Shown here one piece after another: positions 15,903 through 60,307 of a stretch of DNA of 64,000 nucleotides (the stretch's first letter is position 1; each line of letters starts with the position of its first letter). The translations under genes were made by a program, and so were the position numbers. The stretch spans positions 21,423-85,422 of the forward strand of contig JALONT010000008.1 in assembly GCA_025454795.1 (NCBI GenBank), written 5' to 3'. The notes beneath the pieces are model-generated. The model was not told the origin of the DNA. It saw only the letters and a program-made list of their open reading frames with translations, and did not search any database. The DNA comes from Bacteroidales bacterium. Its GTDB lineage: Bacteria; Bacteroidota; Bacteroidia; Bacteroidales; VadinHA17.

Positions 15903-15910
15903 TCCGGATA

Positions 15911-27741: not shown

Positions 27742-27874
27742 AACGGGACAAAGATAATCAATTCATAAAAATACAAAGAAGGTATCCTGAAAGTGTTTTT
27801 ACCATACCACCAACCGTTAGCTGGCGCTTGACACCCCTTCATTGAATTAAAAGTATGCTTTTTGCGGACTCTGT

Positions 27875-28840
27875 TTATCTGAATTTTGTGCTTGAAGTGA
27901 GCAGCTGGATCATTTCAAAATACTCATCTTCATTCAGGTCGTCATTAAAGAAGTAAAGCGGATTCTGATGGTTTCCATATAAGTCGATCTGGTAATGAAG
28001 ATGCGGACCGGAGGAAGTACCTGAACTGCCGCTCAGCCCAATAATATCGCCACGTTTTACATTCAGTCCGACTGAAACTTTAATTCTGCTCAGATGCCCA
28101 TAGATTGTCTGATATCCATAACCATGGTCAATTTTAACACAATTCCCGAAACCACTGGTGTTCCAGGCTGCTTCAATTACTTTGCCGTTACCTGTTGCGT
28201 ACACTTCCGTACCATATGGTGCACTGAAATCCTGTCCATAATGCCATTGCGGGGTACCCAGCACCGGATGCACTTCTCTGAATTTCAGTCCGTCGCCCCT
28301 TCTGATAGAAACATCAACAGGGCTGATGTATGGAATATACTCCAGAGCTCTCTCCCATTCGTCTTCCTTTTCCCTGATTGCTCTGAATGATTCAGTCTGA
28401 ACCGTTACAATATTCTTAAGTTCCTCTATCCTGATACTTGTTGTTCTCATGATATCGGAATTGAAATAGCCATTAAGGTGGCTGAATCTTTCAACACCTC
28501 CGAATCCGGGTTTCCTTATTGATTCAGGAATGCTGTCCATCTCCAGGATAGGCCGGTAGCGTACCTCATCCGACATTTTTAGGCTGTTAAGTGTCTTGAG
28601 TGAATGGTCGAGCCCCCTGTTTGCCAGAGAATACTGAAACTTCAGGTTTCCTATCTGCTGATTCAGCATTGCTTCTTTAGGAGAACCAAACAGGCTTTCG
28701 AATATGGTAGCATAAATAATTGTAATGGTAACTGTCCCTGCAAACCAGAAAAGAAGGTGTAAAAGCTTCTTCGTCCACGGCAGTCTTACCTGCTTGAATT
28801 GCAGATCATTAAGATCCAAAAAATATTTCCGGTTTCGCAT
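27875..28840 (-). CDS. M23 family metallopeptidase (paralog of the preceding gene)
   Basis: 321 aa with the same architecture: HYGQDF, GNCVKIDHG, GSSGTSSGPHLHYQ and a LNEDEYFEMIQ tail. Confidence 0.85.
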   Translation of the reverse strand: MRNRKYFLDLNDLQFKQVRLPWTKKLLHLLFWFAGTVTITIIYATIFESLFGSPKEAMLNQQIGNLKFQYSLANRGLDHSLKTLNSLKMSDEVRYRPILEMDSIPESIRKPGFGGVERFSHLNGYFNSDIMRTTSIRIEELKNIVTVQTESFRAIREKEDEWERALEYIPYISPVDVSIRRGDGLKFREVHPVLGTPQWHYGQDFSAPYGTEVYATGNGKVIEAAWNTSGFGNCVKIDHGYGYQTIYGHLSRIKVSVGLNVKRGDIIGLSGSSGTSSGPHLHYQIDLYGNHQNPLYFFNDDLNEDEYFEMIQLLTSSTKFR

Positions 28841-38934: not shown

Positions 38935-41796
38935 ATGATGAAAAGGTTTACACTGCTTACTCTTTTGCTTACGTTACTGGTAAGCAGCAGATTATTCCCC
39001 CAGGCAAAAATTGAGAATAAACTGACTTTTTATGATGCTGAAAGCTGGATCCTGTTTGAGGACTATAAAGAAGCTATACCGCTTTACCTGAGGCTGAATA
39101 AATTTTATCCCACTAATTCAAATTTCAAATACAGGATCGGACAATGTTATATCAACATACCGGGAGAAAAGGATAAAGCTATCAGTTTCCTTGAAGATGC
39201 TGTAAAAAATATAAATCCAAAATATAAGGAAGGGAGATATAACGAAACAGGTGCACCTTATGATGCATTATATTATCTTGCCAACGCTTACAGGATCAAT
39301 AACCAGCTGGATAAAGCCCTTGAGACATATGAACTATTCAGGAAGAATATGGATCCTGATATCTATGATTCGACAATCGTGAATCAGCAGATACAATCAT
39401 GCCATAATGCAGAAGATCTGATGGGGAGGCCATTTTATGTTAAAGAAAAGAATCTTGGTAACAATATTAATGAACCCAATTCTGAATATAATCCGGTTAT
39501 CACTGATGATGAGAAAACCATGGTATTCACCAGAAGTCAGGCATTTTATGATGCCATTATGCTTTCCACCAGGACTAATGGTGAATGGGGAGGACTGATC
39601 AATATGAATGAGATTCTCAGAATTGACGTTGAAAGGAAACTCTATCCCACCTCTATATCAAATGATGGGAAGGTTCTTTATATGTACGGCCCTGAAAACT
39701 ATGATGGTGTTATTTTCTCTTCGACTTTCGAAAATGGAACCTGGGGACCGGTGGTCAAACTAAACGATAACATCAATACTAAATACTGGGAATCACATGC
39801 TACCATCTCCCATGATAATCAGAAACTATATTTTACAAGCAACCGTAAAGGAACACTGGGAGGCCTCGACATTTATGTCTCGGAAAGAGACACTGCGGGT
39901 AACTGGGGCCCGCCGGTAAACCTTGGCCCGGAAATCAATACACCTTACAACGAGGAGACGCCTTTCCTGAGTAAAGACGATAAGACGCTCTATTTCAGCT
40001 CAAAAGGCCATTTTAATATTGGGGGTTATGATATATTTTATTCAAACCTGTTGAGTAACGGAAAATGGTCAGTGCCCCTGAATGTTGGATATCCGGTTAA
40101 TTCAACAGACGATGATATTTTCTTTAAGCCTGTAAATCAGGGATACATAGGATACTTTGCCAAATACACTCCTGACGGTTACGGGAATCAGGATATTTAC
40201 AGAATTGAAATATTTTCTGAAAACCACCCGAGAAAATTCCTCGTAAGGGGTATGGTAAAAGTCGCTGACCTCATCGACACATATAATGACAGTGTGAAAA
40301 TCAGCGCGATGAACCTTAAAGATCCCAGCCAGTTAATTGTTGTTTATTCTGATCCCAGGACAGGAGAATATGAGCTCGAGATCCCTCAGGGAGATTATGA
40401 AGTCACATATGAATATCCGTCAAGCGAGAAGGTAAAAAAGAATCTTAACCTGGCTCTTAATAATCCGTCCGACAGCTTTCTGATGCCCGGAACAATCCTT
40501 CCAAAAACTGATTTCGTTGCTGATCTTTTTGTCGAAAGCGATAAGAATATTTCTGTTGCTAAAGGAGATTCTATTCTGTTCCCTCTTAAAATCGAGCCGA
40601 AATCTGTTCTTACTGTTGAACACTGGCTTGGCGACTCACTTTTATATACCGAGCAGTTTACTGTTACCGATTCCTTATTTAATTATAAAATGGTGCCTAA
40701 GCCAGGCGATAACAAGGTGACCTTTAAAATTACCGACAGATTCAGCAATACAACAACTACCGATGTTTTTATAACGAGGGCCAAAGATGTCATATCCCAG
40801 CCTCTTGTACGTCCCGAATATAGAAGGATCATAGCTAAGAAACAGATAGCCGCCCTTACGGAAATGCTTTCTAACAGGGTTGATGGCAAGCTTGAGAGAA
40901 TTATTGAAAATGCTGAAATAGATAAACAGCAGTTTGGCAGGGTGGATGATCTCATTTCTTATTTAAAAGAGGAAGCTGCAAAGAGCAGTATCAGCCCTGA
41001 AGAGGTAGATATGCTGGCACTTAGGGTTGCAGTAATGGATAATGTTCTTACACAGGCTGCAGTCGATCTGATGGCCAGATATGCCGGGGGCGACCTGAAA
41101 AATATACTTGCTGATATTGATATCTATAAGCTCAATCTTAAAACCTGGACCGACCTTCAGGCATATGTAGCTGCCAAAACCGGAGGTAAAATTACTGCGG
41201 AAGATTTAAATAATCTCGCTGCAGACATACTCGCCAATATTGATCCCGGAATTTCTGTCCTGAAAGAAAAAATCCTTGCCTATGGTGAAAAGTCCGGATC
41301 AGGTACTCTGATTAGAAGAGCAGTCACTTCAACAGATGAGAACAAGATCAAAAAGGCCGGAGAATGGCTGCAATCATTCTCCGAAGACGCCGCCCGGAAA
41401 GGATTCACGGATGCTCAATTAGCTGAGATGATTGCTGTTATAAGCACTCTTCCTGACACCCAGGTCAATAATTACATGAAAGATCTGGCAGGATACGCCG
41501 GAGAACCTTTACTCTCATGGCTTAATTCCATTAACCTTATGGAAGAAAAGCTTAAGACACCTGAAAACCTCATACTCTATATCCTCAGAAACAGGGAAAA
41601 AGGCAATGTCCCGGAAACGGAAATATTTAACAGCTTTGCTAATCAGATCACTGCCAACAATATACCTGTTGATACCATCAAATCACCGATGGAAACTAAG
41701 GGAGGAAGATTATGGTACCTGTGGCTGGTACTGGCAGGTCTTGGATTCATCTTCTTCATTATGCTATCCAGGAGGAAGAAGAAAGACAAAGAATAG
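38935..41796 (+). CDS. TPR + PD40 (TolB-type) beta-propeller protein A, with beta-sandwich/Ig-like domains, a long helical domain and a C-terminal TM anchor
   Basis: Signal peptide MMKRFTLLTLLLTLLVSS. TPR-like YRIGQCYINIPGEKDKA...APYDALYYLANAY. PD40 blades (NINTKYWESH, GGLDIYVSE, NTPYNEETPF, TLYFSSKGHFNIGGYDIF). C-terminal LWYLWLVLAGLGFIFFIMLSRRKKKDKE. The track start at 38878 is a GTG. Confidence 0.7.
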   Translation: MMKRFTLLTLLLTLLVSSRLFPQAKIENKLTFYDAESWILFEDYKEAIPLYLRLNKFYPTNSNFKYRIGQCYINIPGEKDKAISFLEDAVKNINPKYKEGRYNETGAPYDALYYLANAYRINNQLDKALETYELFRKNMDPDIYDSTIVNQQIQSCHNAEDLMGRPFYVKEKNLGNNINEPNSEYNPVITDDEKTMVFTRSQAFYDAIMLSTRTNGEWGGLINMNEILRIDVERKLYPTSISNDGKVLYMYGPENYDGVIFSSTFENGTWGPVVKLNDNINTKYWESHATISHDNQKLYFTSNRKGTLGGLDIYVSERDTAGNWGPPVNLGPEINTPYNEETPFLSKDDKTLYFSSKGHFNIGGYDIFYSNLLSNGKWSVPLNVGYPVNSTDDDIFFKPVNQGYIGYFAKYTPDGYGNQDIYRIEIFSENHPRKFLVRGMVKVADLIDTYNDSVKISAMNLKDPSQLIVVYSDPRTGEYELEIPQGDYEVTYEYPSSEKVKKNLNLALNNPSDSFLMPGTILPKTDFVADLFVESDKNISVAKGDSILFPLKIEPKSVLTVEHWLGDSLLYTEQFTVTDSLFNYKMVPKPGDNKVTFKITDRFSNTTTTDVFITRAKDVISQPLVRPEYRRIIAKKQIAALTEMLSNRVDGKLERIIENAEIDKQQFGRVDDLISYLKEEAAKSSISPEEVDMLALRVAVMDNVLTQAAVDLMARYAGGDLKNILADIDIYKLNLKTWTDLQAYVAAKTGGKITAEDLNNLAADILANIDPGISVLKEKILAYGEKSGSGTLIRRAVTSTDENKIKKAGEWLQSFSEDAARKGFTDAQLAEMIAVISTLPDTQVNNYMKDLAGYAGEPLLSWLNSINLMEEKLKTPENLILYILRNREKGNVPETEIFNSFANQITANNIPVDTIKSPMETKGGRLWYLWLVLAGLGFIFFIMLSRRKKKDKE

Positions 41797-41897
41797 GATT
41801 GATGAAGGGGGGTATCTCAGACGGATACCCTCCTTTTTTGTTACACAATGGATTTTTAATTAAAATTTTTCTAAATTTGTTTGCAAAACCAATAGTT

Positions 41898-43172
41898 ATG
41901 CGCAAAAGGATTTCCACTCTTTTTGTACTGTTTGTACTTTTAATTCCTACTCAGGCACAGGAGACGAGACCGCTTCAGGATATTTTCATTGAAGCTGAGT
42001 ATTTTTTTGTCAATGAAGATTTTTCTGATGCTCTGCCTTATTATCTCCATCTCATCGAAAAGGTTCCCGAGAATGCAAATATCTCCTATCGTATCGGTGT
42101 CTGCTACCTGAATATTGACGGAAAGAAGAATCTTTCTGTGGATTACCTGGAGGCTGCATCAAAAAATATTTCAGCCAAACACAAAGAAGGCACCATAAAC
42201 CAGGTAACGGCTCCTTATGACGCTCTTTATGATCTGGGTTGTGCTTATCTTGTAAATTATCAGTTCGATAAAGCAAAAAATGCCTTCAACAGATACTCTG
42301 CCACACTTCTTTCTGACGATCAGGAGAATCTCGATTTCATTAGTCAGTTGATAAAATCGTGCGATACAGCAAAGGAATTCCTCGCCCATCCTGTCTCATT
42401 TACCGAGGAAAACATGGATGCCGTTTTCAATGATGAAAAGTCAAATTTCAATCCAGTCATTTCGGCTGATGGAAAGTCATTTGCATTTATGGCCTCTATG
42501 AAATTCTACGATGCTATAATGTTTTCAAAGATGGTAAACGGTAAATGGAGCACACCAACCAATATAACTCCTGAAATGATGACTGATGGTGATATGTATA
42601 TCTCATGTCTCTCCGCTGAAGGCAGAATTCTGTTCCTTTCGAAAGATGATGACTACAACAGCGATATTTATACAAGCACTTTTGACGGTATCACATGGGG
42701 CAAGCCTTCAAAGCTCAATAAGAACATAAATACCAGATACTGGGAATCACACGGTTATCTTTCCGAGGACGGTAATCAGCTTGTTTTTGCTTCTGACAGG
42801 CCGGGCGGATTCGGCGGTCTTGATCTGTATATCAGCAGAAAATTAAATGGCGACTGGGGTTCGGCCATAAATCTCGGGCCGCAGGTAAATACTCAGTTCA
42901 ATGAAGACAGACCCTTCCTCATTAATAAAGGAAAGACACTATACTTCAGTTCTCAGGGTCACAGGAATATGGGAGGGTATGATCTTTTCAGGTCCGAACT
43001 TCAGCCGAATAACCTGTGGAGTCAGCCTGAAAACCTTGGTTATCCGCTCAATACACCTGATGACAATATCTTCTTTATGCCGGCAGATAATGGCAATTCA
43101 GGTTATATCTCACGATATAGAGAATCAGATGGTTCAGGCAGGGAGGATATTTACAGGATCACCTTTAAATAA
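41898..43172 (+). CDS. TPR + PD40 beta-propeller protein B (minimal paralog, no C-terminal module)
   Basis: Signal peptide MRKRISTLFVLFVLLIPTQAQ and the same TPR and PD40 motifs (YRIGVCYLNIDGKK, NINTRYWESH, GGLDLYIS, NTQFNEDRPF, TLYFSSQGHRNMGGYDLF). The track start at 41712 lies inside gene A. Confidence 0.7.
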   Translation: MRKRISTLFVLFVLLIPTQAQETRPLQDIFIEAEYFFVNEDFSDALPYYLHLIEKVPENANISYRIGVCYLNIDGKKNLSVDYLEAASKNISAKHKEGTINQVTAPYDALYDLGCAYLVNYQFDKAKNAFNRYSATLLSDDQENLDFISQLIKSCDTAKEFLAHPVSFTEENMDAVFNDEKSNFNPVISADGKSFAFMASMKFYDAIMFSKMVNGKWSTPTNITPEMMTDGDMYISCLSAEGRILFLSKDDDYNSDIYTSTFDGITWGKPSKLNKNINTRYWESHGYLSEDGNQLVFASDRPGGFGGLDLYISRKLNGDWGSAINLGPQVNTQFNEDRPFLINKGKTLYFSSQGHRNMGGYDLFRSELQPNNLWSQPENLGYPLNTPDDNIFFMPADNGNSGYISRYRESDGSGREDIYRITFK

Positions 43173-43226
43173 AAATATGACAGTACATTGGGCTCTGCAT
43201 ATAGAAAAATTATTATATTTGTTCAA

Positions 43227-45200
43227 ATGAATAATTTCAGAGTTAAAATACTTCTTGTTAAGTTGCAGCTATTCACTCTGTTAATTTTCTCTTTTGCTGC
43301 CTCAGCTCAGTCTCCTAAAGAGTTGAAAGGAATATTTGAACAGGCTGAGTCATATTACCTCTACGATGAATTTGAACTTGCCAATCAGCTTTATATCCTG
43401 CTTGAAACTCCTGATAATCTTAATATTAAATACAAGATAGGCACCTGCTATCTTAACATTCCTGGTGAAAAGGCAAACTCTATACCCTATCTTGAGGAAG
43501 CTGTGAAAAACTCAAGCTACGGATCTAAGAGCACTTCATTTAATGAAAAAAGAGCTCCTCTTGATGCATATTTTTTCCTTGCCAAAGCCTATTTGATAAA
43601 CAATGAACTCGAGAAAAGTCTCAGTACATTACAGAAATTCAATGAGCTCTCAAGAGGTGCAGATGTAAAGGGAGATATGAAAAACCTTGAATTTATCGAC
43701 CAGCAGATCCAGGCATGTAAAAGAGCCATTGAATTTAAGGCAACTCCTGTTGAGATGACTAAAAAAATGCTTGGAGGAGGTTTTATGCAGGGATCAATGA
43801 ATGAAAATCCAGCAGTAAGCTTCGACGGAAACTCAATAATCTACACTGAGCGCAGAGGAATGGTTAACATAATTATGTACTCCCGGAAAGAAAGAGACAC
43901 CTGGCAGACACCCATTGATATTACATCCATGATCAACGCCGGGGAGGACTGTTCAACAAGCTCACTAAATGCTGACGGAACGGAGATGTATATCTATAAA
44001 AATGACGTTTATGACGGGAATATTTATACATCACAACTTATCAACGGCTCATGGTCCCCTATCAAAAAACTCAATAAAAACATTAACACCAAATTCTATG
44101 AATCCCATGCCTCAGTCTCTTCAGATGGGAAAAGACTCTATTTTACAAGTAACAGGGAGGGAGGATCGGGAAGTCTTGATATTTATGTCTCAGAAAAAGA
44201 CGCATCCGGAGACTGGGGGCCTGCTGTTAACCTTGGTAATACGATCAACACTCCTTTTAACGAGGATACACCCTTCATCACTAAAAATGATTCAGTACTC
44301 TATTTCTGTTCCGAGGGGCACACCTCCATGGGAGGTTTCGATAATTTCAAAAGCCAAAGGCAGGGAGCAGCATGGAAAACTCCGGCAAACCTGGGAGTCC
44401 CTGTAAATACGACCGACGATGACAAATTCTTTCAGCCATTTAATGACGGAAAGAATGCATATTACTCAATGACAACAGATTACAAAAAGAAAGATATCTT
44501 TTTTCTTGGACTGGGCAGCATTGATGTCAACCAGGTATATGAGATCAAGGGGACTTATAGCCTGAGTGATACGACAGTAGCTTTCGATAAAAAATATATC
44601 ATTAATCTTATAAGTAAGAACTCAGGCGACACCTTGGATGTTGGATATCCTAATAAATATACCGGCCGCTACAGTTTTATGGTACCACCAGGAAAGTTTG
44701 AGCTGGATTATAATGGGTTAGGATATTTATCACAGCGGATTGATACAACTATTTTACCGGATAATCCATCACTGGTTATTGTCATAGATGTTTCATTGGA
44801 GAAAGATACAAGTTTTATCCCGGAAGCTCCTCCTGTCGCAATTGTTGAAACACCTCCGGTTGTTTATGATAAGATCAATCTTTCAAATATTCCTGTCGTT
44901 TCTGAAATTGATTCAAGTATCCTCATAAAGAATATGAATGTTAATGACGTTAACGATACTAACATAAAGGATTCTGACATTCTATATTATACCGTTCAGG
45001 TAATGGCACTTTATAACCCTGTTGATGTGAGCTATTTCAAACGTATCTCTGATATGAAGGTAATGTATAATGATGTAGATAAATTTTACAGGTATACAAC
45101 AGGCCGTTGTGCCACACGGGAAGTTGCATCTGCTTTAAGATCGGATTTAATAAGGAAAGGGTATCCCGAAGAAATCTTTATTAAAAAAGTTTCCAGATAA
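43227..45200 (+). CDS. TPR + PD40 beta-propeller protein C with a C-terminal SPOR-like domain
   Basis: Signal peptide, YKIGTCYLNIPGEKA, NINTKFYESH, GSLDIYVSE, NTPFNEDTPF and VLYFCSEGHTSMGGFDNF. The C-terminus YYTVQVMALYNP...FYRYTTGRCATREVASALRSDLIRKGYPEEIFIKK fits the SPOR pattern. Confidence 0.7.
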   Translation: MNNFRVKILLVKLQLFTLLIFSFAASAQSPKELKGIFEQAESYYLYDEFELANQLYILLETPDNLNIKYKIGTCYLNIPGEKANSIPYLEEAVKNSSYGSKSTSFNEKRAPLDAYFFLAKAYLINNELEKSLSTLQKFNELSRGADVKGDMKNLEFIDQQIQACKRAIEFKATPVEMTKKMLGGGFMQGSMNENPAVSFDGNSIIYTERRGMVNIIMYSRKERDTWQTPIDITSMINAGEDCSTSSLNADGTEMYIYKNDVYDGNIYTSQLINGSWSPIKKLNKNINTKFYESHASVSSDGKRLYFTSNREGGSGSLDIYVSEKDASGDWGPAVNLGNTINTPFNEDTPFITKNDSVLYFCSEGHTSMGGFDNFKSQRQGAAWKTPANLGVPVNTTDDDKFFQPFNDGKNAYYSMTTDYKKKDIFFLGLGSIDVNQVYEIKGTYSLSDTTVAFDKKYIINLISKNSGDTLDVGYPNKYTGRYSFMVPPGKFELDYNGLGYLSQRIDTTILPDNPSLVIVIDVSLEKDTSFIPEAPPVAIVETPPVVYDKINLSNIPVVSEIDSSILIKNMNVNDVNDTNIKDSDILYYTVQVMALYNPVDVSYFKRISDMKVMYNDVDKFYRYTTGRCATREVASALRSDLIRKGYPEEIFIKKVSR

Positions 45201-47714
45201 ATGAATCACTTCAGAAAAGAATTTTTTTTCATTACACTGCTTGCCACCTACGTATCATCATCATTTTCGCAGGAATTAACAAAAAAAGAATTTATCAAGG
45301 CAGTTCAGGAAGCTGATATATCTTATTTATATGATAAGGATTATGAAAGAGCGTCCGGTTTATATGAACCTCTTCAGAAAGCCAATCCCGGTAATGCCAA
45401 TCTTGCTGCCAGGCTGGGAATATGTTATCTGAACCTGGATGGTAAAAAACAGGATGCACTGAGGCTTCTCAAAGAAGCTTCAAAAAATGTTGCCGTCGAT
45501 GATAAAGAGTATGTTTTTTATGGAGAAAAGGCTCAGATGGATACATACCTTTATCTTGCCGTGGCATATCAAATGAATGACAGCCTGGAGAAAGCTTTGT
45601 CAATCTATAACGAGGCCAGGAAAAAACTTGGAAAATTCGATGCTCCCCAGGAAGAATACATTGACGTTCAGGTCGGGAGCTGCTACTATGCCCTTGCAAT
45701 GAAAAAGAAACCTCTGACAATAATATCAGAGCTCTTTGCACCATGGCTTAAAGATTATCCCGGAGCATGCAATCCGGTTCTTGCAAAAAATGATTCTGTT
45801 TTTATTTTCACACAAAAAACAGCAGGGAAAACACGTATCCTCTGTTCGTATAAGTCAAATGGCCAGTGGGGTCTTCCTTCTGACATAACCAAACAGATCG
45901 GAGGATTAGACAGGTTCTATTCTAACTCCATCACCGGCGACGGTAAACTGCTGGTCCTGTTCCTGGACGATGGCGGTGACGGAAATCTTTATTTCTGCCA
46001 CAGGAAAGATACTACATGGACGAAAATCAAGAGTCCCGGCAAACCTATAAATACCATTTACTGGGAATCACATGGTTTTATCACTCCCGACGGGAACACG
46101 ATTTATATAGCCACCAACAGACCCGGCGGAATTGGAGATCTCGATATCTGGGTATCTTCCAAACTGCCGGACGGATCCTGGGCCGATGCAGTAAACTGCG
46201 GAGAGGTGATCAATACCTCCGGTAATGAGGATACCCCATTCTTTGATCCTGTTAATAATGCTTTGATCTTCAGCTCCGAAGGACATGTCAGCATGGGAGG
46301 ATACGATGTTTTCAGGTCAACTAAAAGGTATGACAGCTGGACAAACCCCGTTGGAATGCCATACGCCTTTAATACAACCACTCAAAATACATTTTTTATC
46401 CTCAACAACAATGCACCAGGTTTTGTTGCAAGCCGGTTTGACGAAAAAAGCAAGACAAGGAACATTTACGGGCTGGTGGCAATAGATCCAAACGATGAGA
46501 TTACAACTGCTGAAGGAGGAATAACTCTTAAAGACGGAATGGCAGTTGATCCGAAAAAAGCACTTATAAAGCTCACGGATGTCAAAAAGAAAACACCTGC
46601 AAAAGTCATTCCTGTAAAAGATGACGGGACCTACAAATTCGAGATCACACCAGGCGATTATATGCTTCTGGTAAGTCATCCCGGTTATAAGCCGGATACA
46701 ATTAATATGAGTCTGCCGTTGTATTTCCTGAGCAAATATATGGTTGTCAATTCGACACTTATACCAGAGAAAGTGGCTGATGGCAGTTTCCTCTCAATAA
46801 AAAATGTTCTTTTTGCATTCGACAGTTATAAACTTGATGATCAGGCTATATCGGTATTGGAATCACTGAAACCGATTCTTCTGAGCAATCCGGGGCTGAA
46901 AATTGAAGTTGCAGGATATACAGATGCCCTGGGGAGTACGGATTATAACCTGAAACTTTCCGGCAAAAGAGCAAAAGCGGTTATAGACTACCTTGTATCA
47001 ACGGCGATTCCCGCATCTCGCTTAATTCTGAAATCATTCGGTGAATCAAACTTTGCTGCTATCAATTCAAACCATGACGGATCTGATAATCCGGAAGGAA
47101 GAAAATATAACAGGCGTGTTACATTTGGAATTGTTGATCCTAAGACCGGCATTATTCTGAGGCAGGAAACCTATACACCTGAGCATTTGCGAATGGTATC
47201 TGCCATGAAATACAGCATTGTGCTGAAACATTCCACTGAGAGTCTCTCTCCCGGGTTTTTTGATGGACTGAAGCTTAACGGAGTGCTGTTTGTACGCACT
47301 ATCGATTCAGATTCACAGTTTATTTATGCTATCGGGGTGTTCTACAATAAGACAGATGCAATAAATTATCTTGAATACGTAAGGGAAAAAGGATTTACAG
47401 ACGCTTACATCGTCAACCAGTATGAACTGAATAAGGGGATAAACAAACAGGGTAAATTTACTCCGCCTGTTAACCAGCCAGACGGGAAGAAGATCTACAC
47501 AATACAGATAATAGCAACCAGATCACCTGTAAACATGAATCAGTTCAATAAATTTCAGGGGGTCAGGGAAATTATAGGTGAGGATGGATATTACAGGTAT
47601 GTGACCGGTGAGTACACTCAATTTGCAAAAGCAAAAGAGGCGCTCCGGGAATATAAGGAGGCAGGATTCAGTGATGCATTCATAAGAGAGCTTGACCAAC
47701 TCATAATTAAGTAG
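45201..47714 (+). CDS. TPR + PD40 beta-propeller protein D with an OmpA_C-like domain and two SPOR-like domains
   Basis: ARLGICYLNLDGKK, INTIYWESH, GDLDIWVS, NEDTPFF and LIFSSEGHVSMGGYDVF. OmpA_C segment: FAFDSYKLDDQA...IEVAGYTDALGSTDYNLKLSGKRAKAV...NRRVTF. SPOR-like segment: YTIQIIATRSP...YYRYVTGEYTQFAKAKEALREYKEAGFSDAFI. The ATG directly abuts the TAA of gene C. Confidence 0.75.
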   Translation: MNHFRKEFFFITLLATYVSSSFSQELTKKEFIKAVQEADISYLYDKDYERASGLYEPLQKANPGNANLAARLGICYLNLDGKKQDALRLLKEASKNVAVDDKEYVFYGEKAQMDTYLYLAVAYQMNDSLEKALSIYNEARKKLGKFDAPQEEYIDVQVGSCYYALAMKKKPLTIISELFAPWLKDYPGACNPVLAKNDSVFIFTQKTAGKTRILCSYKSNGQWGLPSDITKQIGGLDRFYSNSITGDGKLLVLFLDDGGDGNLYFCHRKDTTWTKIKSPGKPINTIYWESHGFITPDGNTIYIATNRPGGIGDLDIWVSSKLPDGSWADAVNCGEVINTSGNEDTPFFDPVNNALIFSSEGHVSMGGYDVFRSTKRYDSWTNPVGMPYAFNTTTQNTFFILNNNAPGFVASRFDEKSKTRNIYGLVAIDPNDEITTAEGGITLKDGMAVDPKKALIKLTDVKKKTPAKVIPVKDDGTYKFEITPGDYMLLVSHPGYKPDTINMSLPLYFLSKYMVVNSTLIPEKVADGSFLSIKNVLFAFDSYKLDDQAISVLESLKPILLSNPGLKIEVAGYTDALGSTDYNLKLSGKRAKAVIDYLVSTAIPASRLILKSFGESNFAAINSNHDGSDNPEGRKYNRRVTFGIVDPKTGIILRQETYTPEHLRMVSAMKYSIVLKHSTESLSPGFFDGLKLNGVLFVRTIDSDSQFIYAIGVFYNKTDAINYLEYVREKGFTDAYIVNQYELNKGINKQGKFTPPVNQPDGKKIYTIQIIATRSPVNMNQFNKFQGVREIIGEDGYYRYVTGEYTQFAKAKEALREYKEAGFSDAFIRELDQLIIK

Positions 47715-52835: not shown

Positions 52836-55085
52836 ATGAAAAAATCTTTGGTAACCATTTTAATTTCAGCTTTATTCCTGGCTTCATCTTCATTTCAGGA
52901 TAGCTTAGGACAAGTAGCACTTCCCCATTATGATGGGATGAATTATGCAGTCGGATCCTCGCTTCAGACTCAAACTGGCTGGACGGCTGTTAATTCAGGA
53001 GATGACATTGTTGTAACTGAAGGAAATCTGAATTTTGTAGGATTAACGAATTCAATTGGTAATAAAATTTTATTTAACGGTTCAGGAATAGATGCATCAA
53101 AGTCAATAACATCCCAAACAGCTGGCACAGTTTATTTATCCTTTATAATGAAGGTGACAAATGTGACTGCTGCAACCGAGGTCGTTGGCGGATATTTTGC
53201 CGGATTCGGACAAAATAGTACAACATTTGGCGCAACTATATGGCTGAAAAAAAATGGAGAGAACTTTAATATTGGGATTAATCCAAGAACCACTACCTCT
53301 ATGACAGGGTTTTCATCCGGGACATACTCAATTAATACAGAAATATTTATTGTTGCCTCATACCAATTCAATGGTTCAACAGGAGATGATGTCGCTAAAA
53401 TCTGGATAAATCCTGCACCTTCAACATTCGGAAGTGTTTCAGAACCTGCAGCTGATATAACAGTCACCAATACAGGTGGAACTGATCTGACAGGTATTTC
53501 AACCATCTTTGTACGCCAGGATAGCGATACGGAAACGCCATTCATTCAGATTGATGAGTTCAGAATCAGTATTAACTGGGCGGATGCAACACCTGCTGAT
53601 GTAACAGCCCCTTCTGCATCTTTCAATCCTCTCAACTCTGCAACTGATGTGGCAATTAACACAACACCCACTATCACTTTCGATGAAGCTGTCGTAAAAG
53701 CCGATGGTTCTGAACTTACAGATGGTGATCTGACAGGACCGACAGGACTTGTAACTCTTAAGAAGACGAATGCCTCAGGTGATGATGTTTCTTTCACCGG
53801 CACAATAGATGCTGCCAAAAAAGTTATTACTATTACTCCTTCGGCCCCACTCGACAATTCACAGTTATATTATCTTGCAATAAGTGCTGTTAAAGATGCC
53901 AGTGGAAATCAGTCAACCGCTTCTGAGATCACATTTACAACCATTGCCGCAGCAGCGCCTACTGTTACACTCACAAATCCTGTCGGTGGAGAAACATTCT
54001 ATGCCACTGATCCTGTAACATTCACCTGGACCTCGGAAAATATTACCAACGTCCTGCTGGAAGTATTTGTTCCGCGCGCAAATGAGTGGCAATCCATGGG
54101 AATCCCAATTCCAGCTGTAGCCGGAAAACTTGACTTCGTAATACCATCTGACGCACCTTATGGTACCGAGTATAAGATCCGTATCTCAGATGCAGGTAAT
54201 TCTGCTGTAAATTCAACCAGCGGAAGCTTTACTGTTATTGCTTTTGCTACCAGCCTGACTGAGCTGAGAGCCAATTGTATTCCAAATGATATTGTTAAGC
54301 TTAGCTCTGAAGCTACCGTCACCTTTTTAAGAACTAACCGCTATCAGAAATATATTCAGGATTCCGGTAAAGGATTGCTGATAGATGATGGCGCACATAT
54401 ACTGACCACAACTTTAGCCCCGGGTGACAACATAACCGGACTTGAAGGGAAGCTAGGATTGTATCACGGATTGCTGCAGCTGGTCCCCACCAAAACAACC
54501 GTAACAATTGCATCCAGCGGTAACATAGTGACTCCAACCCAGATGACCATCGCAGATTATAACACCAATTACCTTAACTATGAATCTATGCTGATCAAGC
54601 TGACAAATGTTACTTTCGCTGCCGGCAACGGAACAGCGACATTTGCTGCTGCAACAAACTATATAATCAATGACGGAGCCAATAGCGTGACTTTCAGAAC
54701 ATTCAATGCCGACGAAACCGACATTGACGGTGAAATTATTCCAAATGCCCCCATAAACATGACCTGTATAGCAGGTTTCTATGATGCGACAATTCAGGTC
54801 TATAGTCGTACAAAATCTGATTTCGAGCTTATTACCGCTATTGAAAGAACCTCAGACTTTAAAGCAGAAATTTACCCTGTTCCTGCAGCTGATATGCTTA
54901 AGGTAAGAAACTTAAAGGATATAAAAGCTTACGAAATACTCGATGCAACCGGCAGGACAATAAGCAAATTAAAAGTTGCCGCCGACAGTGAACTAAACAT
55001 TCCTGTCAGCGAACTGAAGCATGGCATATACTATATCCGGTTCAACACTGCCAGCGGCATAGTGGTCAAAAAATTTGTCAAATAA
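52836..55085 (+). CDS. T9SS-secreted multidomain surface protein (LamG-like + SbsA-type Ig + Ig-like + DUF5689/OB-like module + type A C-terminal sorting domain)
   Basis: A signal peptide is present. The Ig-like segment is DVTAPSASFNPLNSATDVAINTTPTITFDE. The OB-like module is YIQDSGKGLLIDDG...LYHGLLQLVP...MLIKLTNVTF. The C-terminus is EIYPVPAADMLKV...GIYYIRFNTASGIVVKKFVK. Confidence 0.65.
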   Translation: MKKSLVTILISALFLASSSFQDSLGQVALPHYDGMNYAVGSSLQTQTGWTAVNSGDDIVVTEGNLNFVGLTNSIGNKILFNGSGIDASKSITSQTAGTVYLSFIMKVTNVTAATEVVGGYFAGFGQNSTTFGATIWLKKNGENFNIGINPRTTTSMTGFSSGTYSINTEIFIVASYQFNGSTGDDVAKIWINPAPSTFGSVSEPAADITVTNTGGTDLTGISTIFVRQDSDTETPFIQIDEFRISINWADATPADVTAPSASFNPLNSATDVAINTTPTITFDEAVVKADGSELTDGDLTGPTGLVTLKKTNASGDDVSFTGTIDAAKKVITITPSAPLDNSQLYYLAISAVKDASGNQSTASEITFTTIAAAAPTVTLTNPVGGETFYATDPVTFTWTSENITNVLLEVFVPRANEWQSMGIPIPAVAGKLDFVIPSDAPYGTEYKIRISDAGNSAVNSTSGSFTVIAFATSLTELRANCIPNDIVKLSSEATVTFLRTNRYQKYIQDSGKGLLIDDGAHILTTTLAPGDNITGLEGKLGLYHGLLQLVPTKTTVTIASSGNIVTPTQMTIADYNTNYLNYESMLIKLTNVTFAAGNGTATFAAATNYIINDGANSVTFRTFNADETDIDGEIIPNAPINMTCIAGFYDATIQVYSRTKSDFELITAIERTSDFKAEIYPVPAADMLKVRNLKDIKAYEILDATGRTISKLKVAADSELNIPVSELKHGIYYIRFNTASGIVVKKFVK

Positions 55086-55107
55086 ACCTGAGTAAATAAC
55101 CTTATTG

Positions 55108-55305
55108 AGAGGCTGCTTCAAAAGCCCACCACCTCCCCCCCGACAATGTCGGGGGTACTTCCCGCCAAAGCGGGACAGGCTCTCCTCTTAAGAGGAGGAG
55201 AAAGGTAATATATTACATATCAGCACTTTCCCCTCCTTTCGAAGGAGGGGTGTCCCGACAGAAGTGTCGGGACTGGGTGGTTAATAAACTCTTGAGGCAG
55301 CCTCT
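55108..55305. repeat. about 200-bp GC-rich multi-hairpin element closed by a 14-nt inverted repeat
   Basis: The outer arms AGAGGCTGCTTCAA (55108-55121) and TTGAGGCAGCCTCT (55292-55305) pair at 13 of 14 positions. Inside are five hairpins: CCCCCGAC-AAT-GTCGGGGG, CCCGC-CAAA-GCGGG, CTCCTCTT/AAGAGGAG, CCCCTCCTT-TCG-AAGGAGGGG and GTCCCGACA-GAAG-TGTCGGGAC. The element is followed by TTTTATTTAAAAAAAA. Confidence 0.75.
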
Positions 55306-55355
55306 TTTATTTAAAAAAAATCACCAAATTTGCACTTCCCGAAAGGAAACAAAAT

Positions 55356-56261
55356 ATGCGGATATCTCGTATAATAATAATTGTACTGCTCTTATTCTTA
55401 TCTGCAGCATCAGGTTGCCGGAAAGTCCCGGAACCGCCGATCCCTGATAATTCTGATGACTTTAAACCCTGTATTCCCTATCCGGGTACTGAAGAGACAC
55501 TCGATATTGTCACTTTTAATGTTGAGACATTCCCTATTAACGGATATACGTCAGTAGTTACAGTAGCTTCACTACTTAATGCTATCGATGCCGATGTATA
55601 TGCATTGCAGGAAATGGCATCAGAATCAGGTTTTAATCAGCTTGTCGGTCTGATGCCCGGATATGCAGGTCTCTTTTACCTGATCAATAATTCGGACTGG
55701 AACCTGGCCTATATTGTTAAAACCCAGGAAGTGACTGTCGACGGAAGCGCCACAAGACTTCTTTTCACCGATTCACAATACTTTCCCCGGCCACCGTTTG
55801 AGATAAAGATACATCATAAGCCCTCCGGTGCAGATCTTTATTTAATTAACAATCACCTTAAATGCTGTGGTGGTTATGAAAATGAAGCCAGCCGAAGGGC
55901 TGCATCCGGAATGCTGAAGAATTATATAGACACTTCAAGACCTGATGATGCTGTTGTGGTGCTGGGCGACCTGAACGACGAAATAACCGGAACAAGTAGT
56001 AGTGACAATCCCTTTCTGAATTTTATTAATGATCCCGGAAATTACCTGTTTTCCGATATGGCTATTGCTGAAGGAAGCATCCTCTGGTGGTCATATCCCT
56101 CATATCCCAGCCATATAGATCACATCCTTGTGACTAACGAATTGTTTTCATCTATAGATACAACAATGGTGTACAAGGCTGCACCCTGCTATTCAGATTA
56201 TTCCATATATATATCCGATCACCGGCCCGTGGGAATAAGACTATCTCCGGCCGGTCGCTGA
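55356..56261 (+). CDS. endonuclease/exonuclease/phosphatase (EEP) family lipoprotein
   Basis: Lipobox LSAASGC. EEP motifs are IVTFNVE, ALQEM, NNHLK, VLGDLND and a terminal SDHRPV. Confidence 0.75.
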   Translation: MRISRIIIIVLLLFLSAASGCRKVPEPPIPDNSDDFKPCIPYPGTEETLDIVTFNVETFPINGYTSVVTVASLLNAIDADVYALQEMASESGFNQLVGLMPGYAGLFYLINNSDWNLAYIVKTQEVTVDGSATRLLFTDSQYFPRPPFEIKIHHKPSGADLYLINNHLKCCGGYENEASRRAASGMLKNYIDTSRPDDAVVVLGDLNDEITGTSSSDNPFLNFINDPGNYLFSDMAIAEGSILWWSYPSYPSHIDHILVTNELFSSIDTTMVYKAAPCYSDYSIYISDHRPVGIRLSPAGR

Positions 56262-57306
56262 AACTCTTTTTCCCCGGATTTTTTACAATCAGTACATACA
56301 CGGGAAAGTGATCGCTGAAACCTCCCTGGAATACCGTTCCTACATAAGTCCGAAGCGGATAACCCTTATATTGTCCGTCTTTCTGAACAAGGAACTGGTT
56401 GTTGAAAACCTGTGCTTTATAGAATTTATAAGATGAATAATCCTTACCTGTAAGTGAAGGGGTAATTATGATCTGATCGAAAAGATTTGTTCCATCACGG
56501 TAATAGAGAGAGCCTATGCCCTTTTTATATAATGGATACATACAGTTAAAAAATTCTCCCTCTTTAAGTTTTCCGGCATCCGGGGCAGCCATCAGGTGTT
56601 TTCGCAGACTCTCGTTCGACGGATCATCATTAAGATCGCCCATGATGAATATTTTTGCATTTGCATCAGCATTAAGCAGACTGTCAGCAAGGTGGCGCGT
56701 CAGAACAGCTGCAGCGTTTCGCCGGGGACGGGTTGTCATTTCACCACCGCTGCGTGAAGGCCAGTGATTCACAATGAAATGCATTGGTTCACCGTCAAAG
56801 ATCCCGGAGACCACAAGCTGATCGCGTGTGAATATCCGTTCATCCTTTTCATTATAGATCCTGAGCTTATTGCTTGTCGATGCGGTAACTCTGAAAAAAC
56901 GGGTACGGTAAAGAAGAGCAACATCCACACCCCTGAGATCGGGAGAATTATAATGCACGATCTGGTACCCTGATCCTTTCAAAAGAGGATGTGCAATAAT
57001 ATCTTCGAGCACTTCCCTGTTTTCAATTTCTGATACCCCAATGACAGCAGGACCTCCTCTCCATCCGTCATCCTCCCCTATCTTCGAAATTGCAAGAGCC
57101 ATATTATTGATCTTATGCAGGTACTTGTCACCAGTCCACCTGTCAAGACCTTGCGGAGTAAATTCCTCATCAAGAACGCCTTCGGTATCAATTGTATCGA
57201 ACAGGTTTTCGAGATTATAAAATGCAATTAATCCTGCTTTATATGATTGCCCGTAAAGCGTTACCAGACTTAAGAATAACAGTATAAATATTAAAAGTTT
57301 TCTCAT
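56152..57306 (-). CDS. endonuclease/exonuclease/phosphatase (EEP) family protein, secreted
   Basis: Signal peptide plus the EEP motifs IAFYNLENLFD, GVSEIEN, VNHWPSR, IMGDLND and FSDHFPV. A 43-codon tail after the domain runs antisense into the 3' end of the previous gene. Confidence 0.7.
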   Translation of the reverse strand: MRKLLIFILLFLSLVTLYGQSYKAGLIAFYNLENLFDTIDTEGVLDEEFTPQGLDRWTGDKYLHKINNMALAISKIGEDDGWRGGPAVIGVSEIENREVLEDIIAHPLLKGSGYQIVHYNSPDLRGVDVALLYRTRFFRVTASTSNKLRIYNEKDERIFTRDQLVVSGIFDGEPMHFIVNHWPSRSGGEMTTRPRRNAAAVLTRHLADSLLNADANAKIFIMGDLNDDPSNESLRKHLMAAPDAGKLKEGEFFNCMYPLYKKGIGSLYYRDGTNLFDQIIITPSLTGKDYSSYKFYKAQVFNNQFLVQKDGQYKGYPLRTYVGTVFQGGFSDHFPVYVLIVKNPGKKSFSDRPEIVLFPRAGDRIYIWNNLNSRVQPCTPLLYL

Positions 57307-57424
57307 TATCCTGCGGCTGAAATGCCAAAGTTAATATTTAAAGTTACCCTTTCAAATATGATGCCGGTAATAAAATTTTCTTATTAATTATAGTATATTT
57401 ACCCATACACTTTTGCACTTATTT

Positions 57425-60142: not shown

Positions 60143-60201
60143 AACCGGCGACCGGCAACGGGCTTGCGGTAACCGGCGAAATAAATCCCCTCCCTGGAGA
60201 C

Positions 60202-60221: not shown

Positions 60222-60243
60222 GGCTTGGGGTGGGTTTTTACAA

Positions 60244-60299: not shown

Positions 60300-60307
60300 T
60301 AATCTTA

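What the first reader, a model, noticed from the sequence alone, without database searches (positions are those of the whole stretch)
38935..47714. Four tandem TPR + PD40-propeller paralogs with swapped envelope-anchoring modules: candidate uncharacterised envelope system
Four consecutive same-strand genes are separated by gaps of 101, 54 and 0 nt, with the TAA of the third abutting the ATG of the fourth. All four encode a Sec signal peptide and a roughly 150-aa TPR-like module (YRIGxCYLNIxGxK ... APYDALYxLxxAY). All four also encode TolB-type PD40 blades (NINTKYWESH, GGLDIYVS, NTxFNEDTPF, TLYFSSxGHxxMGGYDIF, NTxDDDxFF). They differ only in what follows. Protein A has a beta-sandwich, an Ig-like domain, a roughly 300-aa helical region and a C-terminal TM helix with a basic tail (SRRKKKDKE), which implies an inner-membrane anchor with a periplasmic body. 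Protein B has nothing further. Protein C has a beta-sandwich and one SPOR-like domain. Protein D has a beta-sandwich, an OmpA_C-like peptidoglycan-binding domain and two SPOR-like domains. One propeller scaffold is therefore addressed to the inner membrane, the free periplasm, denuded (septal) glycan and bulk peptidoglycan. This echoes TolB/Pal logic, but no tolQRA or pal gene is adjacent. I know of no characterised system with this organisation, and single TPR-PD40-OmpA proteins are only annotated generically.
Basis: partly seen in the sequence, partly recalled or inferred. Interest (0 to 1): 0.8.

Follow-up and report, generated by a model that had tools for sequence, protein, structure and literature searches.

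The report
Four PorE-like envelope tether paralogs
An uncultured Bacteroidales bacterium carries four neighbouring copies of a PorE-type periplasmic scaffold protein, each ending in a different anchor (inner membrane, none, septal cell wall, bulk cell wall); the set is conserved across dozens of related species, but it belongs to a protein family already studied in type IX secretion and outer-membrane integrity.

Summary
Four same-strand genes are present: A 38935-41796, B 41898-43172, C 43227-45200 and D 45201-47714. Each encodes a signal peptide, a TPR module and a TolB-like PD40 propeller.

- A has a CRD sandwich, an Ig-like domain, a helical module and a TM anchor.
- B has nothing further.
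- C has CRD and SPOR.
- D has CRD, OmpA_C, a degenerate SPOR and a SPOR.

The order E2-A-B-C-D-GNAT recurs in 41 of 59 complete loci from species-level MAGs. All of these are uncultured Bacteroidales. The other loci show orderly variants, so this is not random domain loss.

PorE is a type IX secretion (T9SS) peptidoglycan anchor that binds PorP. CHU_0125 is a Pal-like outer-membrane integrity protein. The "fused CpoB-TolB-Pal" idea is already published. None of the four proteins is an equivalog, none is a lipoprotein, and no porP-like gene is adjacent.

New here:
- an inner-membrane-anchored member, carrying a helical module of variable copy number with no Pfam or PDB relative;
- SPOR-bearing members;
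- the conserved four-gene set.

A conserved terminator follows A, so A and B-C-D are probably separate transcripts. Function is inferred, not shown.

The parts
38935..41796 (+). Gene A, 953 aa. Layout: SPI signal peptide (aa 1-23), TPR (~25-165), PD40 propeller (~180-440), CRD sandwich (~443-523), second Ig-like beta domain (~545-615), helical module (630-916), TM helix (927-948), basic tail.
   Evidence: ORF. Pfam PD40 2.5e-21 plus TPR hits. The top Foldseek PDB hits are TolB propellers (7mx5, E 6e-7). CRD by hhalign to the D CRD at 94.6%. More than 120 full-length orthologs at 62-80% identity.
40822..41682 (+). Helical module of A, about 17 short helices. No known relative. Its copy number varies among orthologs.
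   Evidence: AF2 pLDDT 88.2, pTM 0.71. Foldseek against PDB: best E 0.69. A PDB profile search finds nothing credible. Pfam gives no consistent family over 35 members. Only 202 representatives among 1.84 billion proteins match at E<=1e-3, nearly all at the C-terminus of A-like proteins, and the long ones match in 5-13 stretches. The 1485-aa A of L050 has 2 full and 3 partial copies.
41713..41793 (+). C-terminal TM helix (LWYLWLVLAGLGFIFFIML) plus cytoplasmic basic tail (SRRKKKDKE). Inferred to be an inner-membrane stop-transfer anchor.
   Evidence: A hydrophobic helix followed by a Lys/Arg-rich tail (usually preceded by LW[YI]LW) is kept in every complete A ortholog, whatever its length (583-1485 aa). 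W927 is invariant and W930 nearly invariant.
41804..41836 (+). Intrinsic-terminator-like hairpin (14-bp stem followed by a T run), 8 nt after the stop codon of A.
   Evidence: A comparable hairpin plus T run, with differing stem sequences, follows A in 41 of 58 loci.
41872..41879 (+). TAAATTTG, a match to the Bacteroidota -7 promoter consensus TAnnTTTG (consensus recalled from my own knowledge), 18 nt upstream of the B start codon.
   Evidence: Sequence. Many loci carry the same ..TAAATTTG.. motif just before B. This is a consensus match only and has not been tested.
41898..43172 (+). Gene B, 424 aa: SPI signal peptide, TPR and PD40 propeller only (no anchor).
   Evidence: Pfam PD40 5.1e-15. 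PorE model 144.6 bits over residues 20-421. Orthologs are 423-427 aa long, 55-74% identical to the window copy, and present in 55 of 59 complete loci.
43227..45200 (+). Gene C, 657 aa: SPI signal peptide, TPR, PD40 propeller, CRD (aa 441-527; 44547-44807), Pro-rich linker, SPOR (aa 571-657; 44937-45197).
   Evidence: Pfam PD40 6.5e-18. CRD by hhalign at 97.9%, E 6e-13. SPOR: 28 of 29 orthologs hit PF05036, and hhalign to the D SPOR gives 98.9%. The invariant Q21 and Y51-R52-Y53 of the segment sit in stretches I read as the SPOR motifs (correspondence to the FtsN/DamX glycan-binding residues is from my own knowledge).
45201..47714 (+). Gene D, 837 aa: SPI signal peptide, TPR, PD40 propeller, CRD (46491-46775), OmpA_C (46809-47078 and beyond), degenerate SPOR (47151-47450), SPOR (47451-47711).
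   Evidence: Pfam OmpA 8e-18, SPOR and CarboxypepD_reg. OmpA_C aligns to the PorE C-terminal domain 6TOP at E 1.6e-15, and the stretch GYTDALGSTDYNLKLSGKRA keeps the D and N aligned with the PorE stretch holding D576/N584 (my residue count), plus the Arg. SPOR evidence.

Best explanation
The locus encodes four anciently duplicated members of the PorE / CHU_0125 superfamily. These are periplasmic proteins whose N-terminal TPR plus TolB-like propeller is a protein-binding head. In PorE the propeller is needed to bind the outer-membrane barrel PorP. The C-terminal modules fix that head to a layer of the envelope.

Shown by sequence and structure prediction:
- All four proteins are exported by Sec and signal peptidase I, and none is lipidated.
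- D carries an OmpA_C domain with the peptidoglycan-binding residues intact, plus a SPOR domain.
- C carries a SPOR domain alone.
- A ends in a conserved transmembrane helix with a basic tail.
- B has no anchor.

Inferred:
- The heads bind an outer-membrane-side partner. Candidates are a PorP/SprF-type barrel or a gliding/T9SS ring lipoprotein, both of which are encoded in this window.
- D ties that partner to bulk peptidoglycan.
- C and D are additionally drawn to amidase-denuded glycan at division sites and new poles.
- A ties the partner across the periplasm to the inner membrane, through a spacer whose length evolves by copy number of the helical module.
- B is a soluble competitor or adaptor.

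The net effect would be tethering of the outer membrane and its machines to wall and inner membrane. This is the role shown for PorE (T9SS anchoring) and suggested for CHU_0125 (Pal-like outer-membrane integrity).
For: Family membership. The best NCBIfam hits for all four proteins are CHU_0125_OmpA and T9SS_PorE (114-180 bits). The A propeller's best PDB fold matches are TolB. CRD is shared by A, C and D. The OmpA_C of D is closest, among structures named as such, to PorE 6TOP, with binding residues kept. SPOR is supported in C and D.

Conservation of each member. The TM anchor of A is kept in all orthologs even though the intervening region varies from 0 to more than 2 helical modules. Each paralog class is conserved across species at 39-79% identity, against 29-43% between classes, and each keeps its position in the cluster. 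ABCD occurs in 41 of 59 loci, B is present in 55 of 59 and C in 56 of 59.

A variant that keeps the theme. The divergent lineage in L080 keeps the same pattern with other modules: an A-type protein, two OmpA_C types and one anchor-less type.

Candidate partners. The organism has T9SS and gliding genes (gldJ, porP/sprF family, porU, porV) in the same window.

Literature:
- The PorE WD40 domain is needed for PorP binding, and OmpA_C peptidoglycan binding is essential (PMC12773672).
- PorE bridges PorP to peptidoglycan (PMC9143113).
- Deleting CHU_0125 impairs outer-membrane integrity (PMC5891637).
Against: - No partner has been identified. No porP/sprF, gldJ, porU or porV homolog lies within 10 kb of the cluster in any of 81 loci, unlike the F. 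johnsoniae operons that combine a porE-like gene, a porP-like gene and a type B cargo gene.
- None of the four proteins reaches the PorE or CHU_0125 equivalog cut-offs, and none is a lipoprotein. How the heads would reach the outer membrane is therefore open.
- A is followed by a conserved terminator, so co-expression of all four is not guaranteed.
- D is missing in 16 of 59 loci, so it is dispensable or replaced there.
- The length of A varies from 583 to 1485 aa in the loci and up to 2108 aa among library hits to its helical module. This argues against a strict periplasm-spanning ruler.
- Nothing here tests binding, localisation or phenotype.
Confidence: 0.55

Rival explanations
1. A T9SS-independent analogue of Tol-Pal. 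The four proteins form a division-site system that pulls and tethers the outer membrane to septal peptidoglycan and the inner membrane, standing in for TolA (A), free TolB (B) and Pal (C, D) in a phylum reported to lack canonical tol-pal.
For: - The propeller is TolB-like by fold.
- The TPR/propeller/OmpA_C combination was proposed to be a fused CpoB-TolB-Pal (PMC12204202).
- SPOR domains in C and D point to denuded septal glycan (SPOR biology is from my own knowledge).
- The CHU_0125 mutant has Pal-like outer-membrane defects.
- A is anchored in the inner membrane, as TolA is.
Against: - No TolQ/TolR-type motor gene is adjacent.
- The TM helix of A has no protonatable or TolA-like SHLS-type residues that I could see (motif recalled from my own knowledge).
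- The TolB N-terminal domain is absent, and TolB model scores are 21 bits against a cut-off of 343.
- The P. gingivalis porE mutant showed no outer-membrane integrity defect (PMC5053529).
- Whether these genomes really lack TolB/Pal could not be checked.
Confidence: 0.25
2. There is no joint system. The four genes are tandem paralogs that stay adjacent through inheritance. Each serves a different partner elsewhere in the genome, as the several PorE-like proteins of F. johnsoniae each serve their own PorP-like/cargo pair.
For: - PorE homologs occur at 2-13 copies per genome in some Bacteroidota (PMC5053529).
- A terminator separates A from B-C-D.
- Members are lost independently in some lineages (ABC, AB, ACD, AC).
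- The unrelated flanking genes (E2, GNAT) are equally syntenic, so the gene order partly reflects a generally conserved neighbourhood.
Against: - C and D overlap or abut in 38 of 43 loci (-1 or -4 nt).
- The B-C gap is a constant ~52 nt, which is typical of co-translated partners.
- The one-of-each-anchor pattern is kept even where the modules are exchanged (L080).
Confidence: 0.15
3. The C-terminal helix and basic tail of A are a cleaved sorting signal (exosortase- or rhombosortase-like), so A is not an inner-membrane protein but is processed and delivered elsewhere.
For: - The layout (conserved motif, hydrophobic helix, Arg/Lys cluster at the extreme C-terminus) resembles PEP-CTERM/GlyGly-CTERM-type signals (my own knowledge).
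- JGI annotated two homologs as an 'LPXTG-motif cell wall-anchored protein'.
Against: - No NCBIfam sorting-signal model hit A at E<=0.1.
- No sortase-like gene is seen in the ±10 kb flanks.
- No other window ORF carrying the same tail was noticed, although the tail motif was not searched for systematically.
- A plain stop-transfer anchor explains the positive-inside tail.
Confidence: 0.05

Closest known systems
PorE (PG1058 / PGN_1296) of Porphyromonas gingivalis, a T9SS component
   Same: - D has the same domain order: TPR, TolB-like propeller, CRD, OmpA_C.
- The OmpA_C of D aligns to the PorE crystal structure 6TOP, with the peptidoglycan-binding Asp and Asn conserved.
- All four proteins have the PorE model among their two best NCBIfam hits.
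- The organism encodes T9SS genes.
   Different: - Scores are 114-176 bits against a cut-off of 600.
- There is no lipoprotein signal.
- A, B and C lack OmpA_C.
- D adds two SPOR-type domains.
- No porP gene is adjacent.
CHU_0125 of Cytophaga hutchinsonii (TPR-PD40-OmpA_C, 'Pal-like' outer-membrane integrity protein)
   Same: It has the same superfamily and architecture as D. Scores to its NCBIfam model are equal to or slightly better than those to PorE (120-180 bits). It is described as having a signal peptide, TPR, PD40 and OmpA_C, and its deletion weakens the outer membrane.
   Different: The window proteins fall far below the equivalog cut-off of 620. CHU_0125 is a single gene with no SPOR and no TM-anchored paralog described.
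PorE-like proteins of Flavobacterium johnsoniae (e.g. Fjoh_3950)
   Same: They are multi-copy PorE homologs, most predicted not to be lipoproteins (per PMC12773672), in a gliding bacterium. They are proposed to fix PorP-like/type B cargo complexes statically to the wall.
   Different: Those genes sit in operons with a porP/sprF-like gene and a type B CTD cargo gene. Here the four paralogs sit together without either. TM-anchored and SPOR-bearing members are not mentioned in the papers I searched and read.
Tol-Pal (TolB, Pal, CpoB, TolA) of Proteobacteria
   Same: The propeller fold is closest to TolB. The set also includes TPR as in CpoB, OmpA_C as in Pal, an inner-membrane-anchored member with a helical periplasmic region as in TolA, and a likely division-site bias through SPOR.
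   Different: - There is no TolB N-terminal domain, and TolB and Pal model scores are far below their cut-offs.
- No TolQR motor gene is adjacent.
- The anchor of A is C-terminal and unrelated to TolA.
- Nothing is a lipoprotein.
SPOR-domain division proteins (FtsN, DamX, DedD, RlpA)
   Same: The C-terminal domains of C and D match PF05036. They keep a Gln and an aromatic-Arg pair that I place, from my own knowledge of FtsN/DamX, at the denuded-glycan-binding positions of the SPOR sheet.
   Different: SPOR is attached here to a PorE-type scaffold rather than to a bitopic membrane protein or RlpA. The first SPOR-like domain of D has lost those residues.

Membership tests
PorE family T9SS protein (NCBIfam NF052230) | Whole-protein score at or above the curated cut-off of 600 bits | tested here: not met
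   A 113.5, B 144.6, C 116.2 and D 176.1 bits. Orthologs and the L080 paralogs score 124-259 bits.
PorE family T9SS protein | Domain order TPR, beta-propeller, CRD, OmpA_C | tested here: met
   Met by D only. A and C stop at CRD, B stops at the propeller, and none of these three has OmpA_C.
PorE family T9SS protein | Outer-membrane lipoprotein (type II signal peptide with a lipobox Cys) | tested here: not met
   All four proteins and their orthologs have signal peptides ending in ..[AS]Q, with no conserved Cys.
PorE family T9SS protein | Peptidoglycan-binding residues of OmpA_C (PorE D576, N584) present | tested here: met
   GYTDALGSTDYNLKLSGKRA of D aligns with HADRKGPDAYNLGLSDRRA of 6TOP. 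The role of these residues is from PMC12773672; placing D576/N584 in that stretch is my own count.
PorE family T9SS protein | Binds PorP and is required for T9SS secretion | not testable with these tools
   This needs pull-downs or genetics. A porP/sprF-family gene exists at 14827-15804, but it is 23 kb away.
F. johnsoniae-type porE-like operon | Adjacent porP/sprF-like gene and type B CTD cargo gene | tested here: not met
   No PorP/SprF homolog lies within 10 kb in any of 81 loci. The flanks are E2 acyltransferase and GNAT.
CHU_0125 family OmpA-like OM integrity protein (NF053607) | Score at or above the curated cut-off of 620 bits | tested here: not met
   A 153.9, B 137.6, C 119.9 and D 180.5 bits.
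TolB (TIGR02800) | Score at or above 343 bits, with the N-terminal TolB alpha/beta domain preceding the propeller | tested here: not met
   B scores 20.8 and C 21.5 bits. A and D have no hit at E<=0.1. No PF04052 hit was found, and a TPR module occupies the N-terminus.
TolB | PD40 beta-propeller fold | tested here: met
   PF07676 is found in all four proteins. The top Foldseek hits for the A model are TolB structures, E 6e-7 to 1e-4 over about 250 aligned columns. The A propeller model is only of moderate confidence (pLDDT 50-84).
Pal (TIGR02802) | Lipoprotein consisting of an OmpA_C domain; cut-off 125 bits | tested here: not met
   D scores 57.6 bits, over its OmpA_C domain only, and it is not a lipoprotein.
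SPOR domain (PF05036) | Score at or above the gathering threshold of 21 bits | tested here: met
   The D C-terminal segment scores 24.2 bits, and 30 of 30 orthologs hit (best 3e-9).
SPOR domain (PF05036) | The same threshold, for the C-terminal segment of C and for the first SPOR-like segment of D | tested here: inconclusive
   C segment: the window copy scores 15 bits, below the cut-off, but 28 of 29 orthologs hit and hhalign to the D SPOR gives 98.9%. First D segment: 3 of 29 orthologs hit and hhalign gives 97.4%, but the conserved Gln and Arg are lost.
Tol-Pal system | tolQ/tolR/tolA motor genes in the same locus | tested here: not met
   No such genes appear in the ±10 kb flanks of the window locus or of related loci.

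The most novel reading that the evidence does not exclude
The four proteins assemble through their shared TPR-propeller heads into a self-contained, motor-less trans-envelope tether. A connects it to the inner membrane, C and D connect it to septal and bulk peptidoglycan, and the heads connect it to an outer-membrane partner. This assembly would do the job of Tol-Pal during division in a Bacteroidales lineage. The newly recognised helical repeat module of A would set the inner-membrane-to-wall distance.
Probability: 0.2. Interest if true: 0.8.

Novelty: new variant of a known kind. Interest (0 to 1): 0.5.

Why it matters
PorE-family proteins are the only proposed counterpart of Tol-Pal in Bacteroidota. 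It is debated whether they serve T9SS specifically or outer-membrane tethering in general.

A conserved set in which the same head is joined to an inner-membrane anchor, to SPOR, to OmpA_C plus SPOR, or to nothing provides natural 'domain-swap' variants. These could be used to ask what the head binds and where in the envelope it has to be held.

The SPOR-bearing members give a concrete, portable test of the division-site idea, because SPOR domains localise in heterologous hosts.

The inner-membrane-anchored member carries a helical module of variable copy number with no Pfam or PDB relative. I did not find this architecture mentioned in the literature I searched and read.

The weakness is that every carrier seen so far is an uncultured MAG.

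Tried and rejected
- **Cultured carriers.** A search with a divergent A ortholog from a MAG labelled Marinilabiliaceae returned only MAG and metagenome proteins. The same was true of the window's own A and of the 80 best GTDB species representatives.
- **A known fold or family for the A helical module.** Nothing was found by PDB profile search, Foldseek on a confident model, or Pfam on the window copy and on 35 orthologs.
- **A porP/sprF-like or T9SS gene next to the cluster.** None was found in any locus.
- **A lipobox.** Its presence would have made these proteins PorE-like lipoproteins. It is absent in all four classes.
- **Additional paralogs in the window.** None. The window has no tRNA genes.
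- **Peptidase reading.** I rejected a peptidase role for the PD40 domains. No catalytic domain follows the propeller in any of the four, and the prolyl-oligopeptidase hits in Foldseek align only to the propeller.
- **Not possible.**
  - Complexes could not be modelled, because no multimer prediction was available.


Full report
**Observation**

The window holds four consecutive + strand genes at the stated positions:
- A, 38935-41796, 953 aa
- B, 41898-43172, 424 aa
- C, 43227-45200, 657 aa
- D, 45201-47714, 837 aa

The gaps are 101, 54 and 0 nt. The genes are clear paralogs. The first 440 residues of A find the other three by tblastn at E 1e-110, 1e-102 and 1e-62, and find nothing else in the 64 kb.

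**Domain map**

- Pfam finds PD40 repeats in all four proteins (E 2.5e-21 to 3.7e-9) and weak TPR hits in all four. In D it also finds OmpA (8e-18), SPOR and a weak CarboxypepD_reg hit.
- The SPOR-like end of C is below threshold in the window copy (15 bits). It is supported by 28 of 29 orthologs and by hhalign to the D SPOR (98.9%, E 2.8e-17).
- The first SPOR-like segment of D is degenerate. Only 3 of 29 orthologs hit SPOR, but hhalign gives 97.4%. Its consensus has lost a Gln and an Arg that are invariant in the C SPOR segment and conserved (Gln invariant) in the terminal SPOR of D. From my own knowledge of FtsN and DamX, I take these to lie on the glycan-binding face.
- The beta-sandwich after the propeller is the same CRD domain in A, C and D (hhalign 94.6% and 97.9%; 11 of 30 A orthologs hit PF13620).
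- The OmpA_C domain of D aligns to the crystal structure of the PorE C-terminal domain (6TOP, E 1.6e-15). It keeps the Asp and Asn that PMC12773672 showed to be needed for PorE function.
- An AlphaFold model of A has moderate confidence (mean pLDDT 68.6). It shows TPR helices, a propeller, two beta domains, about 290 residues of short helices and a terminal helix. Its best PDB fold matches are TolB propellers.
- All four proteins, and their orthologs, have signal-peptidase-I type signal peptides ending in ..[AS]Q. None has a conserved lipobox cysteine.

**What family this is**

The best NCBIfam matches of all four proteins are two curated models:
- NF052230, the PorE family type IX secretion system protein
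- NF053607, the CHU_0125 family OmpA-like outer-membrane integrity protein

Scores are 114-180 bits, far below the equivalog cut-offs of 600 and 620. The proteins therefore belong to the PorE superfamily but are orthologs of neither characterised member.

The literature on this superfamily is substantial:
- PorE (PG1058) is a TPR/propeller/CRD/OmpA_C lipoprotein essential for gingipain secretion. Homologs occur at 2-13 copies in some Bacteroidota, some with terminal extensions (PMC5053529).
- PorE bridges the outer-membrane barrel PorP to peptidoglycan (PMC9143113).
- Its propeller is needed for PorP binding, and its peptidoglycan-binding residues are essential. Gliding bacteria have several PorE homologs, most predicted not to be lipoproteins, of unknown role (PMC12773672).
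- In F. johnsoniae, PorE-like genes sit in operons with porP-like and type B cargo genes (PMC9143113, PMC12618676).
- Deleting CHU_0125 weakens the outer membrane (PMC5891637).
- A 2025 paper explicitly reads PorE as a fused CpoB-TolB-Pal, and possibly a compact Tol-Pal (PMC12204202).

The statement that such proteins are only generically annotated is out of date.

**Conservation**

The exact protein A occurs on a 94-kb JGI metagenome contig. A has more than 120 full-length homologs at 62-80% identity, all from metagenomes or MAGs labelled Bacteroidales.

A scan of one genome per GTDB species returned 80 loci, all uncultured Bacteroidales or Bacteroidia MAGs from fens, peat, soils, lake sediment and digesters. 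I classified every ORF in these loci by BLASTP against segments of the window proteins. Counts for the 59 loci that are complete from A to the downstream GNAT gene:

| Gene order | Loci |
|---|---|
| A-B-C-D | 41 |
| A-B-C | 12 |
| A-B | 2 |
| A-C-D | 2 |
| A-C | 1 |
| Variant (L080) | 1 |

Within-class identity across species is 39-79%, which exceeds between-class identity within a genome (29-43%). Each class also keeps its place and its C-terminal modules. The duplications therefore predate the divergence of these species, and B is a conserved 423-427-aa protein rather than a decaying fragment.

The C-D junction is -1 or -4 nt in 38 of 43 loci, and the B-C gap is about 52 nt.

In the divergent locus L080 the same position holds an A-type protein, two OmpA_C-bearing PorE-like proteins without SPOR, and an anchor-less one. 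The one-of-each-anchor theme thus survives an exchange of modules.

One caveat applies. The unrelated flanking genes (an E2 acyltransferase and a GNAT) are just as syntenic, so part of the conservation reflects a stable neighbourhood.

**Transcription**

A 14-bp GC-rich hairpin followed by a T run lies 8 nt after the stop codon of A (41804-41836). Hairpins of different sequence occupy the same place in 41 of 58 loci. Many loci then carry a TAAATTTG-type box before B (the Bacteroidota -7 consensus is recalled from my own knowledge). A and B-C-D are therefore probably separate transcription units. Source-record gene calls that start B at 41712, overlapping A, are likely wrong.

**What is new**

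Protein A is the unusual member. Every complete ortholog ends in a hydrophobic helix followed by a Lys/Arg-rich tail, usually opening with LW[YI]LW and containing a small-residue GAG-type motif. This holds whether the protein is 583 or 1485 aa long.

Between the Ig-like domain and this anchor lies a helical module that folds confidently on its own (pLDDT 88, pTM 0.71). It has no known relative:
- no PDB fold match (best E 0.69)
- no credible PDB sequence match
- no consistent Pfam match in 35 orthologs

An exhaustive HMM search of 1.84 billion representative proteins finds only 202 hits. Nearly all lie at the C-terminus of A-like proteins, and the long ones (up to 2108 aa) match in 5-13 stretches. 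The 1485-aa ortholog in L050 has two full and three partial copies, and the ~705-aa orthologs have none. The module therefore behaves as a spacer of variable copy number, while the anchor is the constant feature.

A literature search for PorE together with the SPOR domain returned nothing relevant among the papers listed, and I saw no mention of a TM-anchored PorE-like protein in the papers I read.

**Context**

The window also encodes gliding and T9SS genes:
- gldJ, which meets the equivalog cut-off
- a porP/sprF-family protein
- porU
- porV

A cargo gene with a T9SS C-terminal sorting domain is also present. A T9SS-related role is therefore plausible. However, these genes are 19-25 kb away, and no porP/sprF, gldJ, porU or porV homolog lies within 10 kb of the cluster in any locus.

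**Mechanism**

Shown:
- export of all four proteins
- the domain content
- intact peptidoglycan-binding residues in D
- SPOR homology in C and D
- a conserved C-terminal membrane helix in A

Inferred by analogy with PorE and CHU_0125:
- the TPR-propeller heads bind an outer-membrane-side partner
- D ties that partner to peptidoglycan
- C and D are biased to denuded glycan at division sites
- A links it to the inner membrane
- B is a soluble adaptor or competitor

I give this general tether model 0.55. The rivals are:
- a T9SS-independent analogue of Tol-Pal, 0.25
- independent functions of co-located paralogs, 0.15
- the tail of A being a cleaved sorting signal, 0.05

Points against the best model:
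- no partner has been identified
- none of the proteins is a lipoprotein
- a terminator follows A
- D is missing in 16 of 59 loci
- the length of A is very variable

**Verdict**

The locus is a new variant of a known kind: a PorE-family paralog set with alternative anchors. It is a useful lead for the open question of how Bacteroidota tether their outer membrane. It is not a categorically new system, and so far it is confined to uncultured organisms.

Noticed in passing
window 11796-20614: A block of gliding and T9SS genes: murF (-), gldJ (-; TIGR03524 466.6 bits against a cut-off of 458.2), a porP/sprF-family gene (-), porU (+; 1179 bits) and porV (+; 484 bits). This shows that the organism has T9SS and probably gliding machinery.
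   Followed up: partly
window 52836-62941: A T9SS cargo protein (Big_5 + DUF5689 + Por_Secre_tail) is followed by two Exo_endo_phos genes, a 909-aa ORF (57413-60142) with no Pfam or NCBIfam hit, and two more DUF5689 proteins. This may be a secreted-nuclease or surface-protein locus.
   Followed up: no
window 26770-28840 (- strand): Two tandem M23/LytM peptidase paralogs (323 and 321 aa). They score below cut-off against both DD-endopeptidase models (MepM/ShyA) and amidase-activator models (EnvC/NlpD/ActS). They lie about 10 kb upstream of the SPOR-bearing genes. No link was tested.
   Followed up: no
window 41712-41897; L001 12778-14238: Gene callers of the source records start gene B at 41712 (486 aa), overlapping the 3' end of A and running through the terminator hairpin. 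All orthologs support the Met at 41898 (424 aa).
   Followed up: yes
L046 4356-8783, L050 9974-14431; proteins P0121, P0141: Some A orthologs are 1475-2108 aa long because the helical module is tandemly multiplied. Others (~705 aa) lack it entirely, yet keep the C-terminal anchor.
   Followed up: partly
L080 10004-19530: A divergent Bacteroidales MAG has a variant cluster: an A-type protein, two OmpA_C-bearing PorE-like paralogs (664 and 650 aa, no SPOR), an anchor-less 506-aa paralog, and the GNAT gene.
   Followed up: partly
L010 16246-21559: One MAG has two D-type genes in tandem (837 and 879 aa).
   Followed up: no
window 4475-5809: A PIN-PhoH fusion protein (444 aa). This is ordinary, and is noted only for completeness of the window annotation.
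   Followed up: no
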